NCBI GenBank assembly: GCA_021822565.1
Contig: JAKAQM010000001.1
Span: 9,342 to 73,341, forward strand
DNA from: Actinomycetes bacterium
GTDB lineage: Bacteria > Actinomycetota > Acidimicrobiia > Acidimicrobiales > RAAP-2
Length of the DNA stretch: 64,000 nucleotides
Direction of reading: 5' to 3'
Below the pieces are notes generated by a model. The model had not been told where the DNA came from, made no database searches, and worked only from the letters and a program-made list of their open reading frames with translations. A program made the position numbers and the translations under genes. Positions 1 to 11,976 of the stretch are shown one piece after another (positions within the stretch are counted from its first letter, which is position 1; every line of letters starts with the position of its first letter).

Positions 1-1200
1 GTCGCCGGCTTGGCGATTCGGCTCGGCTACAGCGCCCGCCAGGTCGAACGTCACCTCATGGCTGTAGTCGGTGCCGGACCGCTCGCGCTCGCCCGTGCCA
101 ACCGCGCCCAGACGGCGCGCCTGCTCATCGAGACGACCTCAATGACCTTCTCCGAGGTGGCGTTTGCCGCTGGTTTCTCGAGCATCCGCCAGTTCAACGA
201 CACGGCGCGCTCGGTGCTCGCCGGCACGCCGAGCGAGCTTCGCGCTCGGGCCGTCGGTCAGCGTGCCCGGGCCTCAGCGATCAGGCCACGAACCTCCGGC
301 GGCCTCGACTTCCGGCTTCCTTTCCGCAAGCCGTTCGTCCCGGGAAGCCTCTTCGGCCATTTGGCAGCCACCGCAGTGCCCGGGTGCGAGGAGGTTCGTG
401 ACGGCGCGTATCGCCGCACGCTGCGACTTCCCAACGGAGACGGCATCGTCGCACTCAGGCCGCGGGAGGGCCATGTGGCCTGCCGCCTGGTCCTCCACGA
501 CCTGCGCGACATTCCGACCGCGATCGCCAGGTGCCGCCGGCTCCTCGATCTGGACGCGGATCCCGAGGCGATCACCGACGTCCTTGGTGCCGACACGGCA
601 CTTGCTGGTCCGGTGGCCGAGGCTCCAGGGCGGCGAATCCCTCGCACCGTGGACGGGGCCGAGATGGCGCTGCGGGTCGTGCTCGGCCAGCAGGTCTCCA
701 TTGGTGCCGCTCGCACCCATGCGGCCCGCCTCGCCGAGCGATACGGCAGCATGATCGACGACCCGGCGGGCGGGCTGGACCGGGTCTTCCCTTCCCCTGG
801 ATCCCTTCTCGAGCTCGACCCGGAGGCGCTCGCCGTTCCCAAGGCACGCAGGGAAGCGTTCATCGCGTTGGCCACTGCGTTGGCGGAAGGCAGCATCGAG
901 CTCGGTGCCGGTGCCGACCAGGAGCGCGCTCGTCAGCAGCTGGCTGGGCTCGACGGCATCGGGTCATGGACGCTCGGGGTCATCGCCATGCGGGCGTTGG
1001 GTGACCCCGACGCCTTCCCGGCGACCGACGCGGGCGTGGTGAAGGGTGCCGCCGTGCTCGGCCTTCCTACGCGCCCAGCGGCGCTCGTGGCCCACAGCCG
1101 GCGGTGGCAGCCGTGGCGGTCCTACGCCGCGCAGTACCTGTGGGGCACCCAGGACCACCCGGTCAACCAGTGGCCGGCGAAGGAACCACGATGCGCCTGA
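1..1200 (+). CDS. alkA: Ada/AlkA-type fusion, 5' partial: AraC-type HTH + AlkA N-terminal domain + HhH-GPD DNA-3-methyladenine glycosylase II
   Basis: Frame stays open to the window edge. AraC HTH signature FSEVAFAAGFSSIRQFNDTARSV. C-terminal HhH-GPD region GIGSWTLGVIAMRALGDPDAFPATDAGV. The last codons and stop (TGA 1198-1200) overlap the start of the next gene (ATG 1191). Confidence 0.85.
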   Translation, partial: VAGLAIRLGYSARQVERHLMAVVGAGPLALARANRAQTARLLIETTSMTFSEVAFAAGFSSIRQFNDTARSVLAGTPSELRARAVGQRARASAIRPRTSGGLDFRLPFRKPFVPGSLFGHLAATAVPGCEEVRDGAYRRTLRLPNGDGIVALRPREGHVACRLVLHDLRDIPTAIARCRRLLDLDADPEAITDVLGADTALAGPVAEAPGRRIPRTVDGAEMALRVVLGQQVSIGAARTHAARLAERYGSMIDDPAGGLDRVFPSPGSLLELDPEALAVPKARREAFIALATALAEGSIELGAGADQERARQQLAGLDGIGSWTLGVIAMRALGDPDAFPATDAGVVKGAAVLGLPTRPAALVAHSRRWQPWRSYAAQYLWGTQDHPVNQWPAKEPRCA

Positions 1201-1817
1201 TCCGCTCTCGGACCGTCGACAGCCCTATCGGCCTGCTCACCTTGGCCGGCCACCGCGACGTGCTCACCAACCTGGTCATGGAAGGTGGAGCCCATCTCCC
1301 ACCGGACCGCACCCGGTGGGTAAGGGATGAGGAAGCCTTCTCCGATGCTGTCGCCCAGATCGAGGCGTACTTCGCCGGTGAGCGCGTCGGCTTCGACGTC
1401 GCTCTGCGCCCAGATGGCACGAGCTTCCAGCGACGAGTGTGGGATGCCCTGTCCGAGATCCCCTACGGCGAGACCTGCTCGTACGGCGAGATCGCCCGCC
1501 GTATCGGTCAACCTGGGGCGGCGCGGGCAGTCGGGATCGCGACCGGGCGCAACCCGATCCCCATCATCGTCCCCTGCCACCGGGTCATCGGGGCGAACGG
1601 CACCCTCACCGGGTATGCGGGAGGGCTGGAGACCAAGCGCGCCCTGCTCGACCTGGAGCAGGCTTTTTGCCCTGACCCACGACGTCCACGACCCGCAGTA
1701 ACGGTCGCGAACACCCTCGGGGGCTCGTCGCACGCGGCGCCACGGCGGGGCGAGCTCGAAGCCGACTCCATCGATGCGAGCTCGAGGCCGGTTCCATCGA
1801 TGGAGGGCCAGCCGTAG
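1191..1817 (+). CDS. ogt: methylated-DNA--protein-cysteine methyltransferase (O6-alkylguanine transferase)
   Basis: Active-site motif IIVPCHRVIGANGTLTGYAGG, preceded by SYGEIARRIG. ATG 1191 overlaps the alkA 3' end by 10 nt. The C-terminal ~45 aa are a low-complexity tail. Confidence 0.9.
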   Translation: MRLIRSRTVDSPIGLLTLAGHRDVLTNLVMEGGAHLPPDRTRWVRDEEAFSDAVAQIEAYFAGERVGFDVALRPDGTSFQRRVWDALSEIPYGETCSYGEIARRIGQPGAARAVGIATGRNPIPIIVPCHRVIGANGTLTGYAGGLETKRALLDLEQAFCPDPRRPRPAVTVANTLGGSSHAAPRRGELEADSIDASSRPVPSMEGQP

Positions 1818-2020
1818 CTCATGGCGGTGCAGAGAGTGATCACGGGCTTTCGCCAGGACGACGAGGGCAACTCTGGGTGGCGGAGCGGACTTGCGGGCAC
1901 GGCCGGGACGTCCCTCATCGCCGCTCCGCCCGCGGCTGGTGAGGGCTTCGGGTCGAGGCGGATGCGTCTCACGCCTGGATGTCTCGGTTTCCCGTCGTTC
2001 CCGGAGCGGCCTTCGCCGCG

Positions 2021-2051
2021 TTGACCCGCTCCCACGAATGTGTAGTAGATT
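2021..2051 (+). promoter_or_regulatory. candidate sigma70-type promoter of the cysteine-membrane/thioredoxin operon
   Basis: TTGACC at 2021-2026. TAGTAG follows at 2043-2048 (16-nt spacer) or TAGATT at 2046-2051 (19-nt spacer). The site lies in a local AT-richer patch about 70 nt upstream of ATG 2122. Confidence 0.35.
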
Positions 2052-2121
2052 GTCTCCGTTGGTGAGCGCACTCGGGGCGCCACCGAATGGATCAGGGCCC
2101 GGCGACGCGAAGGAGACTCTG

Positions 2122-2439
2122 ATGGCCGTTTCCCACGTGACACCCCCGGATGCCAGCCCACGCGCGGGCGGGCGTCCCCACGGGGAACCGAGCTCGAGCA
2201 CGCAGGCTCCCGACGAGAAGAGAGGTCCCGGTGCGGCCCTCCTGCTGCTCGTCCTGCCGGCACTGTGCTGCGGCGGCCCGTTGATCGCCGGTGCGCTGGC
2301 GGCCGCGAGCGCGGCGACCCTCGGCGTGGTGGGCGGCGTGGTCGGCGCGGTCCTCCTCGCGGTCGCCGTCGGGCTCTTGCTTCGGCGCCGACGAAGCGGT
2401 GCGTGCTGCGCACCGGCACAGAATGCGTGGCGCCCGTGA
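2122..2439 (+). CDS. small 2-TM membrane protein with two vicinal cysteine pairs (MerF-like architecture)
   Basis: AAGGAG at 2111-2116 precedes ATG 2122. Two hydrophobic helices. CC pair in helix 1 (LPALCCGGPLIAG) and CC pair in the C-terminal tail (RRRRSGACCAPAQ). Stop overlaps the next gene's GTG (GTGA at 2436-2439). Confidence 0.7.
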   Translation: MAVSHVTPPDASPRAGGRPHGEPSSSTQAPDEKRGPGAALLLLVLPALCCGGPLIAGALAAASAATLGVVGGVVGAVLLAVAVGLLLRRRRSGACCAPAQNAWRP

Positions 2440-3041
2440 GCACGACTACGAATGCACTCACCCGCCTGCGGGCGCCACGGGCGCTCGCCGAGGTGCTTGG
2501 CACGCCCGGGCGCGTCGGAGGCTTCCTGGTCGCCTCCGGCGTCGTGGCGTTCTTCTACACCCTGCTCCTGCCCTTCGACTACACCCAGCGCTTCGAGCTC
2601 GCCAACTGGGACTACCTGGACGCCTACCTGCTCACCTGGGCGATCGTGCTCGGTCTCGCGATGGGGCTCGTCGTGAGCGTCCAGGTCTACGCGATGCGCA
2701 GGATCGCCGCGGCCCGGGCCGCGAGCGGCGCGGCAGGCGGCGTGGCGTTCGTCGCGAGCCTGCTCCCGAGCTTTCTGTGCTGCACCCCGATCGTCCCCTC
2801 CGCGCTCGCCTTCGTCGGGGTGTCGGGGGTGGGCCTCTACACGACGACGGGCGCCCTGCAGCACTTCTTCGCTGTCCACCAGACCGAGTTCCTCTCGTCG
2901 AGCCTCGTGCTCCTCGCCCTCATGTGCTGGTGGGGGCTGCGCAAGGTGGCAGGCTCGCAGTGCTCCGCCGATGCGGCGTGCCCGAGCGGTGACGAAGCCT
3001 TGGCTCGAGGACCCGGGCGCAGGCAAGGAGCCCTTCGATGA
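2436..3041 (+). CDS. 4-TM membrane protein with an intramembrane CC pair and a C-terminal C-X5-C
   Basis: Four hydrophobic segments. SFLCCTPIVP lies in the third segment and GSQCSADAACPSG in the tail. GTGA overlap upstream and ATGA overlap (3038-3041) downstream. No named family recognised. Confidence 0.6.
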   Translation: MSTTTNALTRLRAPRALAEVLGTPGRVGGFLVASGVVAFFYTLLLPFDYTQRFELANWDYLDAYLLTWAIVLGLAMGLVVSVQVYAMRRIAAARAASGAAGGVAFVASLLPSFLCCTPIVPSALAFVGVSGVGLYTTTGALQHFFAVHQTEFLSSSLVLLALMCWWGLRKVAGSQCSADAACPSGDEALARGPGRRQGALR

Positions 3042-3703
3042 CCAGGGCTTCGACGCGCCAGCGCTCGGCACGCCCCACCGGGGCGGCCCGGCGCCGGGCC
3101 GAGGCCCAGCGGCGGCGGCGCAACCGGATCGCTCTGTGGACGAGCGTTGTCGGCATCCTCGGCCTCGCCGGCGTGGTCGTCGGCCTGCACCTCTCGGCGA
3201 CCTCGTCGGCCGGCGGCGCAGCGCCCGGCTCGTCGGGCACGTCTGGCGTGTCGCTTCCGGTCGGCACCAGCGCGCCCAACGGCGCCATCACCACCCTTGC
3301 CGGCGGGTCCGAGACCGTGGCGGGGCTGCGTGGCAAGCCCACGCTCATCTGGTTCGTGACGACGTGGTGCTCGTCGTGCGAGGCGGGCACCCAGGCGATG
3401 GCCCAGAACGTCGCCACGCTCGCCGCAGACGGCGTGCGGGTCGTCGAGGTCGAGAACTACGCCGACCTCGGCCAGTCGGGACCGCCCATGGGCACGTTCG
3501 CCAAGACCCTCGCCGGCAGCGCCTTCACGAACCCGGACTGGACCTTCGGCGAGGCGTCCTCGGCGCTCACCCACACCTACAACCCGAAGGCCTACCTCGA
3601 CATCTACTACCTCATCAGCGCCAAGGGGAAGATCACCTACGTGAACAGCTCGCCGGGATCCACGATGCCCGAGCTGCTCAGCGCCGCCAAGGCGCTCGCA
3701 TGA
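3038..3703 (+). CDS. membrane-anchored thioredoxin-fold protein (TlpA/ResA/redoxin-like), CXXC = WCSSC
   Basis: Basic N-terminus plus one TM helix (IALWTSVVGILGLAGVVVGL). GKPTLIWFVTTWCSSCEAG matches a redoxin active site. Confidence 0.8.
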   Translation: MTRASTRQRSARPTGAARRRAEAQRRRRNRIALWTSVVGILGLAGVVVGLHLSATSSAGGAAPGSSGTSGVSLPVGTSAPNGAITTLAGGSETVAGLRGKPTLIWFVTTWCSSCEAGTQAMAQNVATLAADGVRVVEVENYADLGQSGPPMGTFAKTLAGSAFTNPDWTFGEASSALTHTYNPKAYLDIYYLISAKGKITYVNSSPGSTMPELLSAAKALA

Positions 3704-4401
3704 GCGCCCACGGTGCCCACGAGCGGGCGCCCGAACCTCGGAGCCGCCGGCGCTGGGCCGTCGGGGCAGGTACGGTCCTCTTGGCCGCCGGCCTCGGCGC
3801 GTACGCGCTGGCGGGCAGCGGGGGCGGCACGGTGAGCGCCAAGGTCCAGCCCGTGGCCTCCGACCACCGTGCCAGTTCGGTTTCGACGTCGCCGTCCGCG
3901 CCGACGTCGACACCGGGGACACCGGCGGCCAACGGCACCTTCACGACGCCGTCGGGAACGACCGCGACGATCGCCTCGCTTCGCGGCCATCCGACCATGG
4001 TGTGGTTCGTGGCGGGGGGCTGTGCGAGCTGCGCGGCGAGCATCCCAGCGGTCGCTGCGCACTTCCACCAGCTGCGCGCTGCGGGGCTCCGGGTGCTCAC
4101 CCTGGGCCTCTACGGCGACTTCGCCGCGGGCGACAAGGGCGTCACCCAGCTGCTCACCTTCGGGCGGGAGGCGGCGTTCAACGAGCTGATCTCGCGCGCG
4201 GGCTGGGAGTGGGGGATGGCGTCGAAGTCGCTCAGCCTCGCCTACGACCCCGCCGGCATCCCCGATCTCTACGTGCTCATCGGGCCGACAGGGCACATCC
4301 GCTACCGCAACAGCGTGCCGGACTCGACGATGGGGGCCTTGATCGCCGCGGCTGATCGCCTCGGCACCCGCGTCCAGACCACGGCGGCCGAACGAGGGTG
4401 A
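3700..4401 (+). CDS. membrane-anchored thioredoxin-fold protein (TlpA/ResA-like), CXXC = GCASC
   Basis: ATGA overlap at 3700-3703. N-terminal TM helix (WAVGAGTVLLAAGLGAYAL). GHPTMVWFVAGGCASCAASIP active site. Apparent paralog of the preceding gene. Confidence 0.8.
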   Translation: MSAHGAHERAPEPRSRRRWAVGAGTVLLAAGLGAYALAGSGGGTVSAKVQPVASDHRASSVSTSPSAPTSTPGTPAANGTFTTPSGTTATIASLRGHPTMVWFVAGGCASCAASIPAVAAHFHQLRAAGLRVLTLGLYGDFAAGDKGVTQLLTFGREAAFNELISRAGWEWGMASKSLSLAYDPAGIPDLYVLIGPTGHIRYRNSVPDSTMGALIAAADRLGTRVQTTAAERG

Positions 4402-4587
4402 TGCTGGGCGGCTGAAGGCGTGCGTCGCGCTCGAGTCGAGTCGTGCCGTTCGAACCCCGCCGCGTTCACGGCGGCCTACGCGCTCCGAGGAGATGCGGCT
4501 GCCTTGCGACGTGACCCGCCGAGCGCAGCCATCGTCGAGGGATGCACGCCCGAGGCCGGTGACCGAACCGGATCCGCCCGGCCGTGC

Positions 4588-4791
4588 CTATCCGTCTTTG
4601 GAGGCTTCGAGCGATGCGGGTGCGGAACCGACGAGGCCGACGAGGTGAGCGAGGGTGTCGATCGCGTTGACCATGAGGTCGGTTTCGCTCACGACCACCA
4701 CGTTCGCCGGCACCGGTGTCGTGTCGTCGTCGGACCCCCTGGGAATGACGGTCGGGATTGGCCCCACTGTGATGGCCTGAACTGGCCCCAC
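4588..4791 (-). CDS. hypothetical small protein (67 aa), possibly a gene fragment
   Basis: This ORF has the genome-typical high G/C at third codon positions. It lies 51 nt downstream of the FUSC pseudogene on the same strand. No recognisable motif. Confidence 0.3.
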   Translation of the reverse strand: MGPVQAITVGPIPTVIPRGSDDDTTPVPANVVVVSETDLMVNAIDTLAHLVGLVGSAPASLEASKDG

Positions 4792-4842
4792 CCCCAGACA
4801 CGATGGGACTGCTCCGGGATGGCCCAGCCGGCTCCCGGAGGT

Positions 4843-6072
4843 TCAGGTCATCTCAATCGGCGTTGGCCAGCAGATCCCTCCTCGTGCCGGCGAGGGGGGA
4901 AGGTCGCGGCTGGACCCCCGAGACGCCTCGAGTGGCGGTGTCAGAGGCGTCCTCGGGCATGGTGGTGGCCTGGGCCTGGGGGGCTGGTCGCCGGCGGCGA
5001 CGGCGGTCAGCTGGGCGACGGAGCGGAGCTGGCCGGCGAGTGCCGTGAGGTCGTCGACGGCCTGGGCGGGCGTGACGCGGTTCTGTCGGTCGGCAGAGTG
5101 ACCGAGCGCTCGGAGGTGCTCGACGGTGGCGCGGAACCGTTCGCGGTCGTCGGGCGTGACGGCGACACTGCGAGCGTAGTGGAGGGCGCCAGCCACCTCG
5201 CTGAGCACGTTGGCGGAGGCCTCGATGGCGGCGTCGAGGCTGCGTGCGGCGTCGTGCGCCCAGCTCTGCGTGCTCGTCGGGGTGTCGAAGCTCGCGGTGC
5301 CGGTGAGCCGGGCCCGCGTCCGGGCGACGGCGGCCGCCTGTAGGCGGATCCGCTCGGCCTCGTCCGCCATCGCCTGGTACGCCGCGGCCGCAGCCTGGTC
5401 GCTCCAGGGCTGGGTCTCCATGAGGGCGGAGCGAAGCTCGTCGAGGGCACCGGTCTCGAAGAGGGCGGAGGGGTCGGCGACGAGCGAGCGGAGGTGGTCA
5501 GCCAGCCGGCGGTAGGCGGTGCTCGATGCTGCGCGTTCCACCGGGAAGCGTTGCAGGGGCCAGGTGAGCGGCACCAGCACGATCTGCACAACGGCGCCGC
5601 ACGGCGCCCAGAGCGCATTGAGCGCGGCCTGCTCGGGGGTGAAGGAGAACTGGGAGAACACGACCAAGCCGATGACCGCCTGGAGGCCGACCACGCTCGA
5701 CGCCTGTCCGAAGAGCACCGAGAACCCGGCGGCGACCCCTCAGGAGGCGGTGACGGCGATGTCGGGGCCTTCCACATGCCCCACGGTCGCCCCGACGAAG
5801 GCGGAGACGGCGAAAGCCACCCCCGCGAACGCCATGATCTTCATTCGGCTGCGGTAGGTGCCCTGCAACGACGCCATCCCCGCGGTGAGGGCACCGATCG
5901 CGCCTCCTACCCCGACCAGCAGGTGGCCGGAGAGGTCGCCGGCCAGAAGGGGGATGGCGATGCCGAGCGCGCATCGAGCCGCGGGAAGGAGCGCAAGCTG
6001 GGAGTGGTCCAGGTGGATGGCGTCGTGGACCGGGCGCGTCCAGGTGCCCACCCGTGGCGTCACCGGGCGCAC
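4843..6072 (-). pseudogene. FUSC/ArAE-family (fusaric-acid-resistance-like) membrane protein interrupted by one in-frame TGA
   Basis: ORFs 5740..6072 and 4843..5718 are in the same frame, with TGA at 5742..5740. The 7 codons between them (GVAAGFS) read through cleanly. N-part is TM-rich (ALGIAIPLLAGDL..GALTAGMASLQGTY). C-part is the long helical cytoplasmic region typical of this family. Confidence 0.6.
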
Positions 6073-6174
6073 CGAGCACGGCCCGGTGTCGTCGTCCCCA
6101 CGGTGGCGCTCCGACCTCGACGCGGGGGAGGCGCCGCCACTCGCCCGAAGCGGTCGTCTCTGGCCATCCAGAGC

Positions 6175-6690
6175 TCATCCACTTGGACGCTCCGGGTCGT
6201 GCCGGCTGCCGTCCTCGTCGTCGCCCCCGGAGCGGTCCCGGTCGAGCACGGCGAGGACCTTCTCGGCGGACGAGGTGACGGCGTCGAGCTCGCTCGGCGT
6301 GAGTGGGTCGATGAACAAGCGGCGCACCATCGCCGCATGCTGCGGTGCCGCCGCCTCGATCGCCTTGCGGCCCGTTTCGGTGGCCACGACGAACGCGCCG
6401 CGACGGTCGTCGCCGCAGTGCTCCTTGCTCACGAGCCCCCGATCCGCCATGCGGGCGACCTGATGGGAGACCCGGCTCTTCTCCCAGCCGAGGATCTCTG
6501 CGAGCTCGAACAGCCGGGCCCGGCCGTCGGGACGGTCGGAGAGCGCGACGAGCACCAGGAAGTCGGCGTAGGAGAGCTCCGAGGTCGCGGCCACATCGGC
6601 GGCCAGGCGGCCGGCGAGGCGAAGCTGCATGAACTGCAGCGTCCGCCACGCCCGCTCTTCTCGCTCGTCGAGCCATCGCACCTTGCCCAT
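6175..6690 (-). CDS. MarR family transcriptional regulator
   Basis: Winged-helix region DFLVLVALSDRPDGRARLFELAEILGWEKSRVSHQVARMADRGLV. Upstream of, and co-directional with, the FUSC gene. Confidence 0.85.
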   Translation of the reverse strand: MGKVRWLDEREERAWRTLQFMQLRLAGRLAADVAATSELSYADFLVLVALSDRPDGRARLFELAEILGWEKSRVSHQVARMADRGLVSKEHCGDDRRGAFVVATETGRKAIEAAAPQHAAMVRRLFIDPLTPSELDAVTSSAEKVLAVLDRDRSGGDDEDGSRHDPERPSG

Positions 6691-6720
6691 GCCCCTATCC
6701 TACCCGGGAATAGTTGACTC

Positions 6721-6739
6721 ATCACCCATGTTGGATGAT
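6721..6739. promoter_or_regulatory. imperfect palindrome, candidate MarR operator in the marR/yceI divergent region
   Basis: ATCACCCA-TGT-TGGATGAT, with arms complementary at 7 of 8 positions. It directly follows a TTGACT hexamer at 6714-6719. Confidence 0.35.
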
Positions 6740-6767
6740 CTGTCCACCACGTGAAGGGAGAGCCCCC

Positions 6768-7334
6768 ATGACCACGCCGACCGTCCCGGCCACACTCACC
6801 GGCAGCTACACCATCGATCCCGCCCACAGCCGGATCGGCTTCGTCGCCCGCCACGCCATGGTCACGAAGGTCCGGGGCTCGTTCGACGAGTTCGACGGCT
6901 CGGGCTACTTCGACGCCGCGAACCCGGCGAGCTCGAAGCTCGAGCTCACGATCAAGGCGACCAGCATCGACACCCGCAACGCCGACCGCGATGCCCACCT
7001 GCGCTCGAACGACTTCTTCGACATGGACACCTACCCGCAGATCACCTTCTCTTCGACGAGCGTCGAGCAGACCGACGATGTCCACTTCCGGGTCACCGGT
7101 GACCTGACCATCAAGGGGGTCACCCGCCCCGTCGTCGTCGACTTCGAGTACACCGGCAGCGCGGTGGACCCCTACGGCAACCAGCGGATCGGTTTCGAAG
7201 GAACGACGACGGTCAACCGCAAGGACTGGGGTGTCAACTGGAACGCGGCGCTCGAAGCCGGCGGCGTGCTCGTGAGCGAGAACGTCACCTTGGAGCTCGA
7301 GGTGTCCGCCATCCGCAGCGCCGACGCCGCCTGA
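6768..7334 (+). CDS. YceI family (polyisoprenoid-binding-like) protein
   Basis: YTIDPAHSRIGFVARHAMVTKVRGSF..TRNADRDAHLRSNDFFD are typical YceI motifs. GAAGGGAG lies 7 nt upstream of ATG 6768. Confidence 0.85.
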   Translation: MTTPTVPATLTGSYTIDPAHSRIGFVARHAMVTKVRGSFDEFDGSGYFDAANPASSKLELTIKATSIDTRNADRDAHLRSNDFFDMDTYPQITFSSTSVEQTDDVHFRVTGDLTIKGVTRPVVVDFEYTGSAVDPYGNQRIGFEGTTTVNRKDWGVNWNAALEAGGVLVSENVTLELEVSAIRSADAA

Positions 7335-7380
7335 GCAAGTCCCGAGCGCGTCTCGCTCGCGCCTGTCCGAAGGAATCCCG

Positions 7381-7848
7381 ATGCCCGTATCGCCGGTACG
7401 CCTCAACCACGCTGTGCTCTTCGTCTCTGACCTCGAGCGTTCGCTCCGCTTCTACCGTGACGTGTTCGCCATGGAGGTCATCGCCCGCGAGCCGCGCGCC
7501 AACGCCGCCTTCCTGCGACTGCCGCGCTCGGGCAATCACCACGACCTCGGGCTGTTCGGCGTCGGAACCGCGGGCGGCCCGAAACGGCGCGGCGCCATCG
7601 GCCTGTACCACCTGGCCTGGCAGCTCGACACCATCGACGAGCTGGCTGCCGCCCGCCAGACGCTCCTCGACGCCGGCGCCTATACCGGCGAGTCCAGCCA
7701 CGGGGCCACCAAGAGCATCTATGGTGCCGATCCCGACGGCAACGAGTTCGAGCTGTCAGACGACGTCGCTCACGGCATGTCTCCCGCGCTCACGACCGGG
7801 TCGAGGCACCACTCGGGGTGGTCCTGTTCGAGGCGTTGGAGCTGGTAG
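7381..7848 (+). CDS. VOC (glyoxalase/bleomycin resistance/extradiol dioxygenase) family protein
   Basis: LNHAVLFVSDLERSLRFYRDVFAMEV..SIYGADPDGNEFEL. The C-terminal ~30 aa overlap the prfC 3' end in convergent orientation. Confidence 0.8.
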   Translation: MPVSPVRLNHAVLFVSDLERSLRFYRDVFAMEVIAREPRANAAFLRLPRSGNHHDLGLFGVGTAGGPKRRGAIGLYHLAWQLDTIDELAAARQTLLDAGAYTGESSHGATKSIYGADPDGNEFELSDDVAHGMSPALTTGSRHHSGWSCSRRWSW

Positions 7849-9371
7849 GGGCTCTCGAAGAGGGCGAGCAGGGTCCCGTCGGCGCGAGCGAGCACCCTCG
7901 TGCCTCGCACCGCTCGCAGGTGCTCGGTGGTGCGTCGGTCGGTGCGGCGGGCCGCCCTGTAGGGGGCGGGGGCCAGGTTCACCTCGGCGCCGAACTCGTG
8001 GGCCAGGCGGTGAGCGAACACCTCGAACTGCATGGCGCCCACGGCGGCGAGCACGGGGACCTGGTCGCCGTCGAGATCGCGCAGCACCTGGACGACGCCC
8101 TCGCGTTCGAGCTGGGTGAGGCCTTTGTGGAACTGCTTGTGGCGCCCGGTGTCTCGAGGCCGGACCGAGGCGAACAGCTCCGGTGCGAACGTGGCGATCG
8201 GGGGGAAGGCCACGGGCTCGGCATCGTAGAGGGTGTCGCCGATCCGAAGTTCGCTCGCATTGACGAGACCGACGACATCGCCGGGATAAGCGACGTCGAT
8301 GGTGTCGCGTTCGGCACCGAAGACCGACGCTGCGTACTTGGTCGCGAAGGGCCGGCCGCTGGGTCCGTGCACCAGGATCATCCCGCGGGTGAAGCGTCCC
8401 GAGCACACCCGCACGAAGGCGACGTGGTCGCGATGGGCTGGGTCCATGTTGGCCTGGATCTTGAAGACGAACCCCGAGAACGGCGCGTCGAGCGGACGCT
8501 CGAAGCCCTGGTCATCAGGTCGGGGGGTCGCCGGCGGGGCGAGGTCCACCACGGCGTCGAGGAGGTGGCGGACCCCGAAGTTGGTGAGTGCCGACCCGAC
8601 GAACAGCGGGCTGGAGGAGCCGGCGAGGAACGACGCCGGGTCCAGCGTGGCGCCGACCTCGTCGAGCAGCGCGATCGCATCTCTTGCCTGGTGCCAGGCC
8701 TCGCCTTCCTCGGCGGCCGCTCGATCGGCGTCGAGGCGCTCCTCGGGTGCCGCCGTGGCGCCTCGGGCGGTGCGCATGTAACGGACGAAGCTGGCGTCGC
8801 GTCGGTCGATGACGCCGCGAAAGTCCCCGGGGATCCCCACCGGCCAGGTGACCGGCGTGGGGCGCAGCCCGATCTGCGCTTCGATCTCGTCCAAGAGCTC
8901 CAAGGGATCACGTCCGGGCCGGTCGTACTTGTTCAAGAAGGTGAGGACGGGAAGCGACCGGGCACGGCAGACCTCGAACAGCTTGAGGGTCTGGGCCTCC
9001 ACGCCCTTCGCGACGTCCAGCACCATGATCGCCGCATCGGCGGCCGCGAGGACCCGGTAGGTGTCCTCGGAGAAGTCCCGGTGTCCAGGCGTGTCCAACA
9101 GGTTCACCACGCGCCCGCGATAGGTGAACTGGAGCACCGTGGACGTGATCGAGATGCCCCGTTGCTGCTCCAAGGCCATCCAGTCCGAGGTCGCGCGGCG
9201 CCGTCCGGCTCGCGCCTTCACCGCGCCGGCTTCGACCACCGCGCCTGCGTAGAGGAGGAACTTCTCGGTCAGAGTGGTCTTGCCGGCGTCAGGGTGGCTG
9301 ATGATGGCGAAGGTGCGGCGGCGGGTGGCTTCAGCCTTGACGCTGGTGTCCGATGCGACGGCGAGGCTCAT
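7770..9371 (-). CDS. prfC: peptide chain release factor 3
   Basis: GTPase motifs AIISHPDAGKTTLTEK, DTPGHRDF, NKYDR. Matches RF3 over its full length. Confidence 0.9.
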   Translation of the reverse strand: MSLAVASDTSVKAEATRRRTFAIISHPDAGKTTLTEKFLLYAGAVVEAGAVKARAGRRRATSDWMALEQQRGISITSTVLQFTYRGRVVNLLDTPGHRDFSEDTYRVLAAADAAIMVLDVAKGVEAQTLKLFEVCRARSLPVLTFLNKYDRPGRDPLELLDEIEAQIGLRPTPVTWPVGIPGDFRGVIDRRDASFVRYMRTARGATAAPEERLDADRAAAEEGEAWHQARDAIALLDEVGATLDPASFLAGSSSPLFVGSALTNFGVRHLLDAVVDLAPPATPRPDDQGFERPLDAPFSGFVFKIQANMDPAHRDHVAFVRVCSGRFTRGMILVHGPSGRPFATKYAASVFGAERDTIDVAYPGDVVGLVNASELRIGDTLYDAEPVAFPPIATFAPELFASVRPRDTGRHKQFHKGLTQLEREGVVQVLRDLDGDQVPVLAAVGAMQFEVFAHRLAHEFGAEVNLAPAPYRAARRTDRRTTEHLRAVRGTRVLARADGTLLALFESPYQLQRLEQDHPEWCLDPVVSAGDMP

Positions 9372-9775
9372 CGTCGGACCGCCGGACGGTGGCGGCGAGC
9401 CTCTCGGCGCAGCATCTGGGCCATCGCCTGGGCGGCGTCGAGTTGCTCGCGCAGCGCCTCGCAGCGCTGCTCGGCGGTCACCGCGAAGAGCTCCAAGCGC
9501 TCGACCAGCTCCGAGTGCTCTTGGCCGCCAGCTTCCGCAGCCAGCCGCTCGCGAAGCTCCAGCAGCTCACGCATCTCCTCGAGCGAGAAGTCGAGCGGCT
9601 TCATCTGCTTCACGAGCCGCAGCCGGTCCACGTCGTCATCGGTGTAGAGGCGGAAACCCCCGGCGCTGCGCCCCGAGGGGGGTACCAACCCCACCTCCTC
9701 GTAGTGACGGATGGTCCGCAACGACAAGGAGACCGCTTCAGCCACTTCCCCGATCTGGTGCATGTCTTCGATCAC
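9368..9775 (-). CDS. MerR family transcriptional regulator
   Basis: HTH IGEVAEAVSLSLRTIRHYEEVGLV followed by a coiled-coil. Stop overlaps the prfC ATG (ATGA 9368-9371). Start is GTG 9775 or ATG 9763. Confidence 0.8.
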   Translation of the reverse strand: MIEDMHQIGEVAEAVSLSLRTIRHYEEVGLVPPSGRSAGGFRLYTDDDVDRLRLVKQMKPLDFSLEEMRELLELRERLAAEAGGQEHSELVERLELFAVTAEQRCEALREQLDAAQAMAQMLRREARRHRPAVRR

Positions 9776-9781
9776 GACGCC

Positions 9782-9803
9782 AGGGTACTGCTGAACATAC
9801 CCT
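9782..9803. promoter_or_regulatory. inverted repeat AGGGTA-N10-TACCCT upstream of the MerR-family gene
   Basis: Perfect 6-bp arms at 9782-9787 and 9798-9803, inside a locally AT-richer stretch directly 5' of the GTG at 9775. Confidence 0.35.
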
Positions 9804-9877
9804 CACGTAACAGTAGGTAAGCGTGCAAGCGATGTACCTGGCTGGTGACGTTGTCGAACCGGTCATGACGACGATCC

Positions 9878-9905
9878 GGCCCCTCGGCCCCTCGGCCCCT
9901 CGGCA
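9878..9905. repeat. 8-nt tandem repeat (CGGCCCCT)x3 plus CGGC
   Basis: Read directly: cggcccct cggcccct cggcccct cggc. Intergenic, between the MerR-family gene and yqhA. Confidence 0.9.
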
Positions 9906-10163
9906 CGTGGGCACCCTGGGGCGGGAGAACCTACGCTGCCGTCATGAATGAGCAGTTCGTGACGAAGACGCCGCCGTCGACCATCGGGACGGATGGCTCC
10001 GCAGCGGTCATTCACGATGCATTGCCGGAGAGGACGAACGGGCCCATGGTGTTGTCGGACCTCGCGTTGTCGCGAGATCACGCGGATTGCCCCGACTGAC
10101 GACGAGCTGATGGACGACGGGAGGCAGGGCGACCGTAGCTCCGGAAGTCGACGCGAAGCGACA

Positions 10164-10768: not shown

Positions 10769-11791
10769 CTACCCGACGATGGTGCGCTCTGCCAGCACGA
10801 TGGGTCTCCCCCTGTCGACCTCGACCACGTGCACTCGGTCGCCCCCGGCTCGCCTGGCGCTGTCCATTGCTGACCACGCTTGGGCGAGGACGTCTTCAGG
10901 CCGCTTTCCGGGAAGACGCACGGTCGCCGCCCCGGCGCTCACGGTGATCCGGACCGGGCTGACGGCGGTCGGGACCTGCACCGGCACCGCGGCAGATGCG
11001 CGAAGCCCGACGGCTCTGCGCTGGGCCTCGGACGGACCGATGAGGTCCTCGAAGAGGATGGCGTACTCGTCGTCTCCTATCCGGGCGACGAGGTCACCGG
11101 GACGAACGCGCCCACGCAGGTGGGAGCCGACCTCGACGAGCACAGCGTCGCTGCCGGGGCGGCCGTACCGCGCGTGCACCGCAGCGAGATCGTCGATGCC
11201 GATGACGATGAGCGCGATCCCGTCTGGCTGACGAGACAACCGCGCGAGGGACAGCTCGAGTTGGTCGAGCAGAGCGGCACGGGTCCCCAACCCGGTGAGC
11301 GGGTCGCGTCGGGCGAGATCAGCGAGACGGTGGTGGAGGGACTCGAGCTCCGCGTCGCAATACTTCGCCAGCTCGATCAGGGCCGCCCTGCGGGTCTCGG
11401 ACACCGTGGTGGTCGCTGCGTGCAAGATCGTGGCGCCGACACCGAGCCGCTCCGCCTCTTCGGAGAGTATGCGGCTGACGACCTCGCTCCACCAGAAGCT
11501 GAGCTCGACGAGCGGCGTGACGCCGAGCCGCGTCACGTCCCTACGCCCCCCTGACGACCGACCCTGTGCCATGTGCGATGCCTTTCGCGGCTCCGCGTCC
11601 GCTGTCCGCAGCCAACGGACGATCGACTGCGTGGAGCGCGACATCTCGTGCCGGAGCGGGCCACCAGGGGAGAAGGCTCCCGCTGTGCTCACGTAACGGC
11701 TCTGGCACTCACGAAGGACCTCCTCGCAGCGTGCGGCGAGCGCCTCGCCCAGTGCGGCGTAGCCAGGGTCCCGCTTTCCGTCTGCTCTCAC
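10769..11791 (-). CDS. GGDEF-domain protein with degenerate active site (GDDEY) and an unknown N-terminal domain
   Basis: DPLTGLGTRAALLDQLE..GIDDLAAVHARYG..RPGDLVARIGDDEYAILF. GTG 11791 is chosen because the sequence upstream of it looks non-coding; alternative starts are 11644 and 11572. Confidence 0.7.
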   Translation of the reverse strand: MRADGKRDPGYAALGEALAARCEEVLRECQSRYVSTAGAFSPGGPLRHEMSRSTQSIVRWLRTADAEPRKASHMAQGRSSGGRRDVTRLGVTPLVELSFWWSEVVSRILSEEAERLGVGATILHAATTTVSETRRAALIELAKYCDAELESLHHRLADLARRDPLTGLGTRAALLDQLELSLARLSRQPDGIALIVIGIDDLAAVHARYGRPGSDAVLVEVGSHLRGRVRPGDLVARIGDDEYAILFEDLIGPSEAQRRAVGLRASAAVPVQVPTAVSPVRITVSAGAATVRLPGKRPEDVLAQAWSAMDSARRAGGDRVHVVEVDRGRPIVLAERTIVG

Positions 11792-11976
11792 GTGTCCGGC
11801 CCCTGTCCTTTCCGTGCCCGACGATGTATCGGCCTCCCGAGGGAATGCTTGAGCTCGGCGGCACGCGTGGGCTCTGTCAATATGGGAGCTGCGATGTCGA
11901 CATGGCTCGAGATGCGTGCGCGGAAGAGAAGCCGCCGCCCGCCCGTTCGGGGGCAGGGCCGCAGGCACCCGTGCCG

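What the first reader, a model, noticed from the sequence alone, without database searches (positions are those of the whole stretch)
2021..4401. Four-gene vicinal-cysteine membrane / thioredoxin-fold module with a MerF-like protein but no mer, ccs or dsbD genes
Seen in sequence:
- A ~105-aa protein has two hydrophobic helices. It has a CC pair inside helix 1 (LPALCCGGPL) and a second CC pair in the basic C-terminal tail (SGACCAPAQ).
- A 201-aa 4-TM protein has an intramembrane CC (SFLCCTPIVP) and a C-X5-C tail.
- Two N-terminally anchored thioredoxin-fold paralogs follow, with WCSSC and GCASC active sites.
- All four genes are chained by GTGA/ATGA start-stop overlaps behind one promoter-like site.
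Established knowledge, from memory: MerF is a 2-TM mercury transporter with exactly this layout of two vicinal Cys pairs (CC..P in TM1, ACC.P near the C-terminus). TlpA/ResA-type thioredoxins normally receive electrons from CcdA/DsbD.
Here there is no merA, merP or adjacent merR, and no ccdA/dsbD or ccsAB/resBC.
Inference: either a dedicated soft-metal (Hg/Cu/Cd/As-type) handling unit, or a transmembrane thiol relay in which CC-pair membrane proteins replace CcdA as electron conduit for extracytoplasmic thioredoxins. I do not know of this combination being characterised.
Basis: partly seen in the sequence, partly recalled or inferred. Interest (0 to 1): 0.7.

Follow-up and report, generated by a model that had tools for sequence, protein, structure and literature searches.

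The report
Stray mercury-uptake module with new parts
These four genes are a stand-alone copy of a cysteine-based membrane and thioredoxin-fold module that, in related bacteria, sits inside mercury-resistance gene clusters in place of the usual mercury transport genes, so it is most likely an undescribed variant of the mercury uptake machinery.

Summary
Four translationally coupled genes lie at 2122-4401:
- A: 2-TM, two CC pairs.
- B: 4-TM, intramembrane CC plus a C-X5-C tail.
- C and D: membrane-anchored thioredoxin-fold proteins with WCSSC and GCASC.

Every cysteine motif is conserved in orthologs.

The window has no mer genes, but the module is not independent of mer. Of 45 genome loci holding B, 19 have a bona fide merA within 3.7 kb. 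Of the 24 loci with at least 5 kb on both sides, 13 do. In several loci the order is merR / merA-A-B-C. Three diverged B lineages (24-38% identity) also show merA-B-Trx or merA-Trx-B. MerB and ArsR-type mer regulators recur, and no known mer transporter is present.

A is homologous to the "MerT" of Mycobacterium marinum pMM23 and has the MerF layout. B has no Pfam, NCBIfam or PDB match.

Most likely this is an Hg(II) capture and import relay: Trx CxxC, then membrane CC, then cytoplasmic Cys. Here it is stripped of merA and of its usual BlaI/BlaR-like regulators, but it keeps their operator and is under purifying selection.

A reductive thiol relay is not excluded. I rate it a new variant of a known kind.

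The parts
2021..2051 (+). Promoter/operator block: TTGACC (-35-like), then CTCCCAC-GAATGT-GTAGTAG, then ATT. It is a degenerate copy of a dyad (TACTAC-N6-GTAGTA, containing TACA-N4-TGTA) that overlaps the -10 region.
   Evidence: It aligns column for column with the region upstream of gene A in the 20 loci aligned. The core pattern AC-N3-T-N2-GTAGTA occurs exactly once per locus, in the window and in 32 of the 50 fetched loci, and always at this position where the module is on the + strand. BlaI/MecI/CopY-family repressors bind TACAxxTGTA-type dyads (PMC5772342). It does not pass the generic sigma-70 scan.
2122..2439 (+). Gene A: a 105-aa 2-TM protein. It has CC(49,50)-GGP in TM1 and a basic stretch followed by CC(95,96)-AP in the C-terminal tail. 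It has the MerF layout and is homologous to the actinobacterial 'MerT'.
   Evidence: Sequence. No Pfam or NCBIfam family. Cysteines conserved. hhalign against pMM23 MerT: 97.5%, E 5.7e-12. Against MerF: 48.8%, E 1.8e-4. An A-like ORF lies upstream of B in 39 of 43 assessable loci.
2436..3041 (+). Gene B: a 201-aa 4-TM protein of an unnamed family. It has CC(115,116)-TP in TM3 and C176-X5-C182 just after TM4. The outer loops are conserved (LLPFDYTQRFELANW, TTGxLQHFFAVHQ).
   Evidence: 261 homologs, none with a Pfam domain, and the only source name is 'hypothetical protein'. Invariant residues. AF2 model: pLDDT 74, pTM 0.64, helices 24-44, 63-95, 100-126 and 149-178. No PDB fold match. Only 184 clusters at 50% identity among 1.84 billion representatives. 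Weak profile similarity of TM3-TM4 to A (75%) and to MerT (28%).
3038..3703 (+). Gene C: a 221-aa, N-terminally anchored thioredoxin-fold protein with WCSSC. The position that holds the canonical Pro in paralog D (GIPD) is Leu here (YLD).
   Evidence: Pfam AhpC-TSA and Redoxin, weak. Best PDB sequence hit is M. tuberculosis MPT53/DsbE, E 2e-7. WC[S/D/T]SC in 40 of 40 orthologs. A C-type gene accompanies B wherever the contig allows. It directly follows B except in L040 (opposite strand, upstream) and L030 (best match to D). The same motif is found next to diverged B homologs. The YLD motif matched in 35 of 40 orthologs.
3700..4401 (+). Gene D: a 233-aa paralog of C (about 40% identity), N-terminally anchored, thioredoxin fold, GCASC. 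It retains the canonical GIPD cis-Pro motif.
   Evidence: Pfam AhpC-TSA and Redoxin, weak. [G/S]C-x-x-C in 33 of 33 orthologs. Paralogy. GIPD motif.

Best explanation
The module is the metal-capture and membrane-transfer part of an Acidimicrobiia-type mercury resistance (mer) system. In this genome it is a stand-alone copy between ogt and the prfC region.

Proposed mechanism (inferred by analogy with MerP, MerT and MerA):
1. Outside the membrane, the anchored thioredoxin-fold proteins C and/or D bind Hg(II) between the two thiols of their CxxC motifs. This is the role MerP plays in Gram-negative bacteria.
2. Hg(II) is handed to the vicinal cysteine pair inside the membrane in B (TM3) and/or A (TM1).
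3. It moves on by ligand exchange to the cytoplasmic cysteines: C176-X5-C182 of B and the CC tail of A.
4. From there it goes to the C-terminal CC, or the NmerA domain, of mercuric reductase.

A and B probably work as a complex, because natural A-B fusions exist.

In most genomes the operon is repressed through a conserved dyad on its promoter. The likely repressor is the BlaI-like protein encoded just upstream, together with a cysteine-bearing BlaR1-like membrane protease.

This window keeps the operator but has no regulator, no merA and no arsR within 64 kb. MerA and the repressor must therefore act from elsewhere in the genome, or the copy is expressed without them.

Shown: gene structure, conservation, homology of A, and genomic linkage to merA/merB/merR/arsR.
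Inferred: metal specificity, direction of transfer, and the roles of C versus D.
For: (1) Linkage to merA.
- MerA scores 562-586 bits against TIGR02053 (cut-off 454) and ends in ...LSCCAA.
- It lies within 3.7 kb of B in 19 of 45 species-representative genome loci, and in 13 of the 24 loci with at least 5 kb on both sides.
- L025, L037, L039, L043 and L044 read merR(MerR family, three Cys) / merA-A-B-C(-D), with A starting right after merA.

(2) The link holds in diverged lineages.
- L062-L064 (B 38% identical): merA-B-Trx(WCSSC).
- L065 (30%): arsR-merA-B-x-Trx(WCSSC).
- L060 (24%): merA-Trx(WCGSC)-B.

(3) Other mer components.
- merB is present in five loci.
- The ArsR next to the module is 51% identical to the regulator of the M. 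marinum pMM23 mer operon.
- No MerP, Tn21-type MerT, MerC, MerE or MerH is found in any of 50 loci. The only pMM23 'MerT' match is the A-like ORF itself (L045). The module therefore occupies the transporter slot.

(4) Homology and layout.
- A against pMM23 'MerT': hhalign 97.5%. A has the MerF layout with both CC pairs aligned.
- B reproduces the MerT logic of a membrane CC plus a cytoplasmic C-X5-C. The canonical relay is MerP C33/C36, then MerT C24/C25, then C76/C82, then MerA C558/C559 (PMC5715351).
- TM3-TM4 of B aligns with A at 75% probability.

(5) The CxxC dipeptides (SS, AS) lack the Pro or Gly typical of redox-active TlpA, ResA and DsbE. From my own knowledge, they resemble HMA-type metal sites. 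In C, the position that holds the canonical Pro in paralog D (GIPD) is Leu. That Pro is thought to prevent metal binding by the CxxC (PMC2757866, citing Su et al. 2007).

(6) A-B fusion proteins exist (P0190, P0304).

(7) The stand-alone copy is maintained.
- The same site is occupied in a related MAG (L006).
- dN/dS is 0.30-0.45 for A-D, against 0.37 for Ogt.
- The reading frames are intact and overlapping, and the promoter/operator is conserved.

(8) MAGs with two copies, only one of which is next to merA (JAKAQW: L011 and L024), make a merA acting in trans plausible.
Against: - No merA, merB, arsR, Hg-type merR or BlaI/BlaR gene lies in the 64-kb window. From established knowledge of merT/merP, an Hg(II) importer without a reductase should make cells hypersensitive.
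- About half of the well-flanked loci have no merA within 10 kb.
- A and B match no Mer family model. Similarity to MerF (49%) and to MerT (20-28%) is below what proves homology. B is not MerH or MerC.
- C and D are, by sequence, nearest to extracytoplasmic thiol-disulfide oxidoreductases (MPT53/DsbE, ResA). D keeps the cis-Pro.
- The replacement of that Pro in C is not universal: L057 and L065 have Pro.
- The most frequent partner of the module is a BlaI/BlaR-like pair (28 of 45 loci), not merA. This could point to a broader envelope or thiol stress function.
- Nothing here measures metal binding or transport.
Confidence: 0.65

Rival explanations
1. Reductive thiol relay. B (with A) carries reducing equivalents across the membrane, from a cytoplasmic thiol reductant through C176/C182 to CC115/116. 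It then passes them to the CxxC of the extracytoplasmic thioredoxin-fold proteins C and D. Those proteins keep or restore reduced thiols outside the cell under Hg, metal or oxidant stress. This would be a CcdA/DsbD-independent analogue of the CcdA-to-ResA/TlpA pathway.
For: - C and D are nearest by sequence to MPT53/DsbE, ResA, DsbE and TlpA, and D keeps the cis-Pro motif GIPD.
- B is paired with a Trx-fold gene in the 45 genome loci wherever the contig allows, and in 5 of the 6 diverged contexts examined (L059 is too short to tell). This includes contexts with no merA in the sequence held (L057, L061).
- The order cytoplasmic Cys pair, membrane Cys pair, external CxxC fits electron flow outward as well as Hg flow inward.
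- A MerA paralog without the C-terminal CC (PNDR449) sits between the regulators and A in several loci and could be an electron donor.
- Regulation by a BlaR1-like membrane protease with four conserved Cys suggests envelope or thiol stress sensing.
- The module exists without merA, as in the window and L008.
Against: - Neither A nor B matches the DsbD/CcdA models. B has 4 TM and a vicinal CC, not two separate Cys in repeated PCxxP helices. From established knowledge, vicinal disulfides are strained and are unusual redox relays, while vicinal thiols are a hallmark of Hg carriers such as MerT, MerC, MerF and the MerA C-terminus.
- The CxxC dipeptides SS and AS lack Pro.
- A is homologous to a mer-operon protein.
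- The link to merA is tight and phylogenetically wide.
- This reading does not explain why these mer clusters lack every known Hg transporter.
Confidence: 0.15
2. The same kind of thiol-based capture and import or sequestration unit, but for another soft metal (Cu(I), Ag(I), Cd(II), Au) or with broad specificity. Mercury clusters would be only one of its genomic homes. The stand-alone copy in this window would serve general metal homeostasis in a metal-rich acidic habitat.
For: - Most loci come from MAGs whose isolate names suggest mine-drainage or sediment series, and from acidophile genera (Aciditerrimonas, Ferrimicrobium).
- The BlaI-like repressor is distantly related to CopY (TIGR02698, 32.8 bits, far below its cut-off).
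- An HMA-domain protein lies downstream in L062.
- The ArsR next to the module hits CmtR (Cd/Pb) models weakly.
- About half of the loci have no merA nearby.
- One source names a C homolog 'SCO1/SenC family'.
Against: - The recurrent enzymatic partners are MerA and MerB, which are mercury-specific.
- No copper ATPase, CopZ, multicopper oxidase or cad/ars gene recurred in the contexts inspected.
- The BlaI-like protein has no Cys, so it is not a CopY-type metal sensor.
- C and D lack the Sco CxxxC + His motif.
Confidence: 0.1
3. In this genome the four genes are a decaying leftover of a mer island that lost merA and its regulators, and they no longer have a function.
For: - merA, arsR and BlaI/BlaR are absent from 64 kb.
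- The left half of the operator dyad is degenerate in the window (CTCCCAC instead of CTACTAC).
- This configuration is rare. Of the 24 well-flanked loci, only 2 lack all partners.
Against: - All four frames are intact with coupled start/stop overlaps.
- All conserved cysteines are present.
- dN/dS against the syntenic L006 copy is 0.30-0.45, like the neighbouring ogt.
- The same bare arrangement at the same chromosomal site is kept in a second MAG whose flanking proteins are 77-93% identical.
Confidence: 0.05

Closest known systems
MerF (2-TM mercuric ion transporter of pMER327/419; PDB 2M67/2MOZ)
   Same: Protein A has the same layout: two TM helices, a vicinal CC followed by Pro in TM1, then a basic stretch and a second vicinal CC-x-P in the cytoplasmic tail. 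hhalign aligns both CC pairs.
   Different: - A matches no Pfam or NCBIfam MerF model.
- The profile similarity is only 48.8% probability.
- A carries a roughly 37-aa N-terminal extension.
- MerF works with MerP, not with thioredoxin-fold proteins.
Actinobacterial 'MerT' of Mycobacterium marinum pMM23 (WP_012296232), encoded next to an ArsR-type regulator and merA-merH-merB
   Same: It is homologous to A over the CC-containing hairpin and the basic stretch (hhalign 97.5%, E 5.7e-12; BLASTP 39% over 54 aa). Both sit in mer clusters with an ArsR-family regulator. The two ArsR proteins are 51% identical.
   Different: - The pMM23 protein has a single Cys after TM2 and a longer tail.
- It has no B, C or D partner.
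- I know of no transport assay for it.
MerP-MerT relay of Tn501/Tn21
   Same: The logic is the same: an external CxxC protein, a vicinal CC inside the membrane, a cytoplasmic C-X5-C (MerT C76/C82; B C176/C182), then MerA (PMC5715351).
   Different: - B has four TM helices, with the CC in TM3 rather than TM1. Its profile similarity to MerT is only 28%.
- The external partner has a membrane-anchored thioredoxin fold instead of the soluble HMA fold of MerP.
- There are two paralogous external proteins and two membrane proteins.
MerC and MerH (4-TM mercury transporters)
   Same: Both have four TM helices and a cysteine pair essential for Hg transport (PMC3466566).
   Different: hhalign finds no similarity between the B profile and MerH (0.1%) or MerC (1.6%). 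The CC lies in a different helix.
CcdA/DsbD with ResA/TlpA/CcmG/DsbE (transmembrane reductive pathway)
   Same: Both pair a membrane protein carrying essential cysteines with N-terminally anchored extracytoplasmic thioredoxin-fold CxxC proteins. C and D hit the ResA, DsbE and TlpA models and MPT53.
   Different: - All scores are far below the family cut-offs.
- A and B do not match DsbD/CcdA.
- A and B have vicinal rather than separated Cys.
- The CxxC motifs have no Pro.
- There is no cytochrome c maturation context. The context is mer.
BlaI/BlaR1 (MecI/MecR1, CopY) repressor and membrane-protease signalling
   Same: In 28 of 45 loci the module is preceded by a Penicillinase_R repressor and an HExxH membrane protease. 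The module promoter carries a TACA...TGTA-type dyad.
   Different: - The protease has no penicillin-binding sensor domain and has four conserved Cys.
- The half-sites are spaced 4 rather than 2 apart.
- The window itself has only the operator.

Membership tests
MerF (Pfam PF11431 Transport_MerF) - for protein A | Match to the family profile | tested here: not met
   No MerF hit in Pfam or NCBIfam at E up to 1. phmmer and a profile search against the PDB did not recover the MerF chains. Those chains carry Cys-to-Ser changes.
MerF - for protein A | Two TM helices, a vicinal CC in TM1 and a second vicinal CC in the cytoplasmic C-terminal tail | tested here: met
   Hydropathy and sequence. The CCGGP motif is invariant and the tail CC is at least 90% conserved. 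hhalign aligns both pairs with MerF, but at only 48.8% probability.
MerF / MerT-type transporters - for A and B | Cysteine-dependent Hg(II) uptake | not testable with these tools
   This needs uptake, hypersensitivity or volatilisation assays with Cys mutants.
Actinobacterial 2-TM 'MerT' (M. marinum pMM23 type) - for protein A | Sequence homology over the CC hairpin | tested here: met
   hhalign 97.5%, E 5.7e-12. BLASTP 39% over 54 aa, E 2e-6. tblastn of pMM23 MerT hits the A-like ORF of L045.
MerT (Pfam PF02411) - for protein B | Match to the family profile; three TM helices with CC in TM1 and a cytoplasmic C-X5-C | tested here: not met
   B gets no Pfam hit. Only 2 of 44 family members hit MerT, at E 0.0047 and below the cut-off. 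hhalign gives 27.9%. B has four TM helices with the CC in TM3. The C-X5-C spacing is shared.
MerH / MerC - for protein B | Sequence homology | tested here: not met
   hhalign gives 0.1% against MerH and 1.6% against MerC.
MerP (HMA fold) - for C and D | A soluble ferredoxin-like HMA domain with GMTCxxC | tested here: not met
   C and D have a thioredoxin fold (AhpC-TSA/Redoxin) and are membrane-anchored. tblastn with MerP finds nothing in the window or the loci. Only the external CxxC is shared.
TlpA/ResA/DsbE thiol-disulfide oxidoreductases - for C and D | Score above the family cut-off; a CxPC-type active site; a cis-Pro loop | tested here: not met
   The best NCBIfam scores are 29 bits (ResA, cut-off 170) and 23 bits (DsbE, cut-off 123). 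The active sites are CSSC and CASC. The cis-Pro position is Leu in C and Pro in D. Fold-level membership in the thioredoxin superfamily is met.
CcdA/DsbD - for A and B | Match to the DsbD or DsbD_2 profiles; six or more TM helices with one Cys in each of two repeated helices | tested here: not met
   No such hit at E up to 1. B has four TM helices and A has two, with vicinal Cys.
mer operon (system level) | Co-location with merA and a Hg-responsive regulator | tested here: not met
   For the window itself there is none in 64 kb. For the gene family the feature is met. merA lies within 3.7 kb in 19 of 45 loci, and in 13 of the 24 well-flanked ones. MerR- or ArsR-type regulators and merB are also present in those loci.

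The most novel reading that the evidence does not exclude
B, together with A, is a previously unrecognised kind of transmembrane thiol conduit. It works with dedicated extracytoplasmic thioredoxin-fold partners. It can run independently of MerA as an envelope thiol-protection or Hg-sequestration system. It is switched on by a BlaR1-like membrane protease that senses thiol-reactive stress through its own conserved cysteines. The stand-alone copy in this window would then be a functional unit in its own right, not a mer leftover.
Probability: 0.15. Interest if true: 0.8.

Novelty: new variant of a known kind. Interest (0 to 1): 0.55.

Why it matters
Surveys of mer operons list MerP, T, C, E, F, G and H as the binding and transport functions (PMC3466566, PMC8261052).

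The mer clusters found here in Acidimicrobiia, Conexibacter, Dormibacterota and more distant lineages carry none of these in recognisable form. Instead they carry a conserved pair: a 4-TM CC protein with no family assignment, and a WCSSC thioredoxin-fold protein. Usually a MerF-like protein and a second thioredoxin-fold paralog are present too.

If confirmed, this would:
- add a new transporter family and a thioredoxin-fold substitute for MerP to mercury biology;
- explain how these bacteria, which lack any recognised Hg transporter in these clusters, deliver Hg(II) to MerA;
- correct the generic 'redoxin/TlpA' and 'hypothetical' annotations of several hundred proteins;
- improve metagenomic inference of mercury cycling in mine-drainage and soil communities;
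- point to a BlaI/BlaR-type proteolytic switch as a regulator of metal-handling genes.

For this window in particular, the copy lacks merA. It therefore raises a testable question: what does an Hg importer do on its own?

Tried and rejected
- **MerH homology of B.** Rejected (hhalign 0.1%).
- **MerC homology of B.** Rejected (1.6%).
- **B in plasmids.** tblastn at E up to 10 found nothing.
- **Structure match for B.** The best Foldseek E-value against the PDB was 1.9, so there is no match. Profile searches of A and B against PDB sequences gave only chance TM hits.
- **A riboswitch or attenuator in the 5' leader (2050-2127).** Folding z-score -0.45. No Rfam family reached its gathering score in 1-10000.
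- **Generic sigma-70 promoter and intrinsic terminator scan of 1700-4900.** Nothing found.
- **The 550-aa ORF at 11566-13218.** I first suspected merA from its length. By reading its translation it looks like a threonine dehydratase (not checked against a profile). tblastn with MerA does not hit the window.
- **The window's MerR-family gene (9368-9775).** It has one Cys, lies below all metal-MerR cut-offs, and is syntenic with prfC in L006. I do not take it for the module's regulator.
- **Fetching the window's own contig through P0001.** Not on record.
- **Schué et al. 2009 (MerH).** Not held.
- **The argument that C has lost the cis-Pro.** I weakened it after finding Pro at that position in two distant homologs.

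Full report
**1. What is in the window**

The region lies in about 70-75% G+C DNA. It holds four co-directional genes that overlap by GTGA, ATGA and ATGA.

- **A (2122-2439, 105 aa).** It has a polar N-terminus and two hydrophobic helices. C49C50 lies in ...VLPALCCGGPLIAG..., and after RRRR comes a second pair, GAC95C96AP.
- **B (2436-3041, 201 aa).** Some public gene calls use an upstream GTG at 2403 and give 212 aa. An AlphaFold2 model (pLDDT 74, pTM 0.64) shows helices 24-44, 63-95, 100-126 (broken at T117-P118) and 149-178. C115C116 sits in SFLCCTPIVP, and C176-X5-C182 follows the last helix. By the positive-inside rule both termini are cytoplasmic. This puts the tail cysteines inside the cell (inference).
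- **C (3038-3703, 221 aa) and D (3700-4401, 233 aa).** They are paralogs, about 40% identical. Each has a basic N-terminus, one anchor helix, a Ser/Gly/Thr-rich linker and a thioredoxin-fold domain. The active sites are WCSSC and GCASC.

Pfam and NCBIfam give nothing for A and B. For C and D they give only weak AhpC-TSA/Redoxin and ResA/DsbE/TlpA hits, far below the cut-offs.

The neighbours are as follows:
- an Ada/AlkA-type gene and ogt upstream;
- two unassigned minus-strand ORFs, MarR, YceI, a glyoxalase-family gene, prfC and a one-Cys MerR-family gene downstream.

prfC was recognised by reading its translation. No profile scan was run on it.

**2.

- B has 261 relatives in the 5.8-billion-protein set. 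None carries a Pfam domain, and the only source name is 'hypothetical protein'.
- A full HMMER pass over 1.84 billion representatives finds only 184 clusters.
- CC115/116, C176 and C182 are invariant among 35 homologs.
- CC is the only invariant pair among 44 members down to 21% identity. Those members usually also have one or two Cys, often CC, right after TM4.
- In A, CCGGP is invariant and the tail CC is at least 90% conserved.
- WC[S/D/T]SC occurs in 40 of 40 distinct C orthologs. [G/S]C-x-x-C occurs in 33 of 33 D orthologs.

**3. Genomic context elsewhere changes the interpretation**

A scan of one genome per GTDB species gave 45 loci. They come from:
- Acidimicrobiales, Acidimicrobiaceae and 'Actinomycetes' MAGs;
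- Aciditerrimonas ferrireducens JCM 15389 and a Ferrimicrobium MAG;
- Conexibacter sp. S30A1;
- Candidatus Dormiibacterota.

tblastn with reference proteins gave these counts:

| Feature | Count |
|---|---|
| A-like CC ORF directly upstream of B | 39 of 43 assessable loci |
| C-type gene with B | all loci where the contig allows; directly downstream of B except L040 (opposite strand, upstream) and L030 (best match to D) |
| D | usually next after C |
| BlaI-like repressor plus M48/BlaR1-like protease upstream | 28 of 45 |
| ArsR-family gene nearby | 15 of 45 |
| MerA within 10 kb (never more than 3.7 kb from B) | 19 of 45; 13 of the 24 loci with at least 5 kb on both sides |
| At least one of merA, arsR or blaI | 22 of those 24 |

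The MerA proteins are genuine.
- They score 562-586 bits against TIGR02053 (cut-off 454).
- They have the CxxxxC active site and a ...LSCCAA C-terminus. Some have an NmerA domain.

In L025/L026, L037, L039, L043 and L044 the order is merR (MerR family, three Cys) divergent from merA-A-B-C(-D). A begins immediately after merA. In Conexibacter it is merA / arsR-D-B-C-blaI-M48.

merB is present in five loci. No MerP, Tn21 MerT, MerC, MerE or MerH is detectable in any of the 50 loci searched. The only pMM23 'MerT' match is the A-like ORF of L045.

The ArsR is 51% identical to the regulator of the M. marinum pMM23 mer operon.

The link persists in diverged branches of the B family:
- merA-B-Trx(WFVTTWCSSC) in L062-L064 (B 38% identical);
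- arsR-merA-B-x-Trx(WCSSC) in L065 (30%);
- merA-Trx(WCGSC)-B in L060 (24%);
- Trx(WCSSC)-B-MMPL in L057, and Trx(FCSSC)-B next to an HxlR gene in L061. Neither of these two short contigs holds merA in the sequence recovered.

One protein in the collection joins the N-terminus of MerA to the C-terminus of B (P0246).

MerA is a single gene present in a minority of genomes. Finding it within 4 kb in about half of the loci, and in independent lineages, cannot be coincidence (inference).

**4. Homology of the parts**

- The A profile matches the 'MerT' of pMM23 at 97.5% probability (E 5.7e-12).
- A aligns with MerF over both CC pairs at 48.8%. I checked my MerF sequence against PDB 2M67.
- The A profile matches Tn21 MerT at only 20%.
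- B is not MerH or MerC.
- B's TM3-TM4 hairpin plus basic stretch aligns with the A family (75%, E 2.6e-5) and weakly with TM1-TM2 of MerT (28%).
- Two distant B members touch Pfam MerT at E 0.005.
- B has no fold match in the PDB.

B therefore looks like two extra N-terminal helices followed by a MerF/MerT-like cysteine hairpin. This is suggested, not proven.

Natural A-B fusions (P0190, P0304) indicate that the two work together.

**5. Mechanism**

The accepted model for Tn501/Tn21 runs as follows: MerP C33/C36, then MerT C24/C25 in TM1, then MerT C76/C82 on the cytoplasmic face, then MerA C558/C559 (PMC5715351).

The module offers the same stations:
- an external CxxC (C, D);
- an intramembrane CC (B, A);
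- cytoplasmic C-X5-C (B) and CC (A).

In most related loci MerA has its C-terminal CC close by.

The CxxC dipeptides SS and AS lack the Pro or Gly of redox-active relatives. From my own knowledge they resemble HMA metal sites.

In C, the residue at the position that holds the canonical Pro in its paralog D (GIPD) is Leu. The YLD motif matched in 35 of 40 orthologs. That Pro is more conserved than the CxxC across the fold and is thought to prevent metal binding (PMC2757866). This is only weak support, because two distant homologs keep Pro.

I therefore favour Hg(II) capture and inward hand-off (confidence 0.65).

The same architecture could carry electrons outward. That is the main rival (0.15). 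It is favoured by four points:
- the DsbE/ResA-like affinities of C and D;
- the near-constant B-Trx pairing, which holds even in contexts with no merA in the sequence held;
- a MerA paralog without the C-terminal CC in some loci;
- the nature of the regulators.

**6. Regulation**

Upstream of A, in the window and in 32 of the 50 fetched loci, there is one conserved block. It reads TTGACnCG-CTCyyAC-GAATrTGTAGTAG. In diverged loci it is a clean dyad, for example CTACTAC-AGTTAC-GTAGTAG or TACA-AATT-TGTA. The block occurs once per locus.

BlaI/MecI/CopY repressors bind TACAxxTGTA dyads (PMC5772342). The dyad is present in loci that have BlaI but no ArsR. It is absent from the ArsR-B-C-D variants (L029, L038). 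The BlaI-like protein is therefore the likely binder (inference).

Its partner protease has HExxH and four near-invariant Cys.

The window keeps the block at 2021-2051, with a degenerate left half-site. It encodes neither protein within 64 kb.

**7. The copy in this window**

It is a stripped version. Within 64 kb there is no merA, merB, arsR, blaI or M48.

A related MAG (L006) has the same arrangement, Ada/AlkA-ogt-[A-B-C-D]-prfC-merR-family. It lacks the roughly 3.4-kb MarR/YceI/glyoxalase stretch.

Between the two copies, dN/dS is 0.32 (A), 0.30 (B), 0.30 (C) and 0.45 (D). For comparison it is 0.37 for ogt and 0.13 for prfC. The genes are therefore maintained.

Some MAGs carry two module copies, only one of them next to merA (L011 and L024). 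A merA elsewhere in this genome is therefore plausible but unverified.

**8. Comparison with what is known, and novelty**

The function class, mer transport and binding, is known. Protein A belongs with an annotated but (to my knowledge) untested actinobacterial MerT-like group.

Three things are not described in the mer surveys I could read (PMC3466566, PMC8261052) or in five literature searches:
- the B family;
- the use of thioredoxin-fold CxxC proteins in the MerP position;
- the BlaI/BlaR-type control.

Public annotation calls C 'redoxin domain-containing', 'TlpA family' or 'thiol-disulfide isomerase'.

A conceptually similar proposal exists for the unrelated SAO system. There, CC/CU-rich membrane proteins and a thioredoxin-like protein are proposed to traffic a mercury-like metal species (bioRxiv 10.1101/2022.07.06.499078).

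**9. Verdict**

The soft-metal reading is right. The independence from mer is wrong at the family level.
- It is a new variant of a known kind.
- Interest is 0.55.

Noticed in passing
L001:5587-6953 and the equivalent genes in 28 of 45 genome loci; not in the window: A BlaI-like repressor with no Cys is paired with an M48/BlaR1-like membrane protease. The protease has no sensor domain, has HExxH, and has four near-invariant Cys (positions 53, 72, 293 and 308 in L001). The pair immediately precedes the module. It could be a thiol- or Hg-responsive proteolytic switch.
   Followed up: partly
L003:6095-7441 (minus strand); also L011, L024, L033; frameshifted in L012 and L036: A 449-aa MerA paralog, 36% identical to MerA, lies between the protease gene and gene A. 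It has the CxxxxC redox site but no C-terminal CC pair. Its role is unknown. It is decayed in two loci.
   Followed up: partly
Proteins P0190, P0304, P0226, P0246 (from the representative search): P0190 and P0304 are natural in-frame A-B fusions. P0226 is a B homolog with a low-complexity insert of about 300 aa in its second loop. P0246 joins NmerA and the FAD-binding start of MerA to the C-terminal half of B. P0246 may be a deletion or an assembly chimera.
   Followed up: no
L062:1359-3961 and L065:7618-8127: Extra cysteine proteins travel with diverged merA-B-Trx operons. L062 has a 185-aa membrane protein with GYTCCAMTVP and a 149-aa HMA-domain protein. L065 has a 169-aa anchored protein with CLGC and a C-terminal GCSC.
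   Followed up: no
window 4420-7848: This stretch holds two unassigned minus-strand ORFs (4843-5718 and 5740-6072, no Pfam hit, possibly one gene split by a frameshift). It also holds MarR (6175-6690), YceI (6714-7334) and a glyoxalase-family gene (7381-7848). The whole stretch is missing from the otherwise syntenic locus L006, so it is an indel between close relatives.
   Followed up: partly
window 2436-3041 versus L006:3157-3759: Synonymous divergence of B between the two syntenic copies is 0.16. That is clearly lower than for A, C, D, ogt and prfC (0.28-0.50). Possible causes are extra constraint on the B coding DNA, or recent exchange of this gene.
   Followed up: no
L054:2738-3931 and L056:602-1428: A tyrosine integrase gene lies a few kb from the module in L054, and IS21 IstB fragments lie a few kb from it in L056. 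This suggests the mer-type island that carries the module is mobile.
   Followed up: no
window 10-1817: The AraC-HTH/AlkA_N/HhH-GPD fusion gene (Ada/AlkA type) runs to 1200, and the ogt gene to 1817. The window starts inside or just before the first gene. Its N-terminal Ada methyl-acceptor part, if there is one, is therefore not visible.
   Followed up: no
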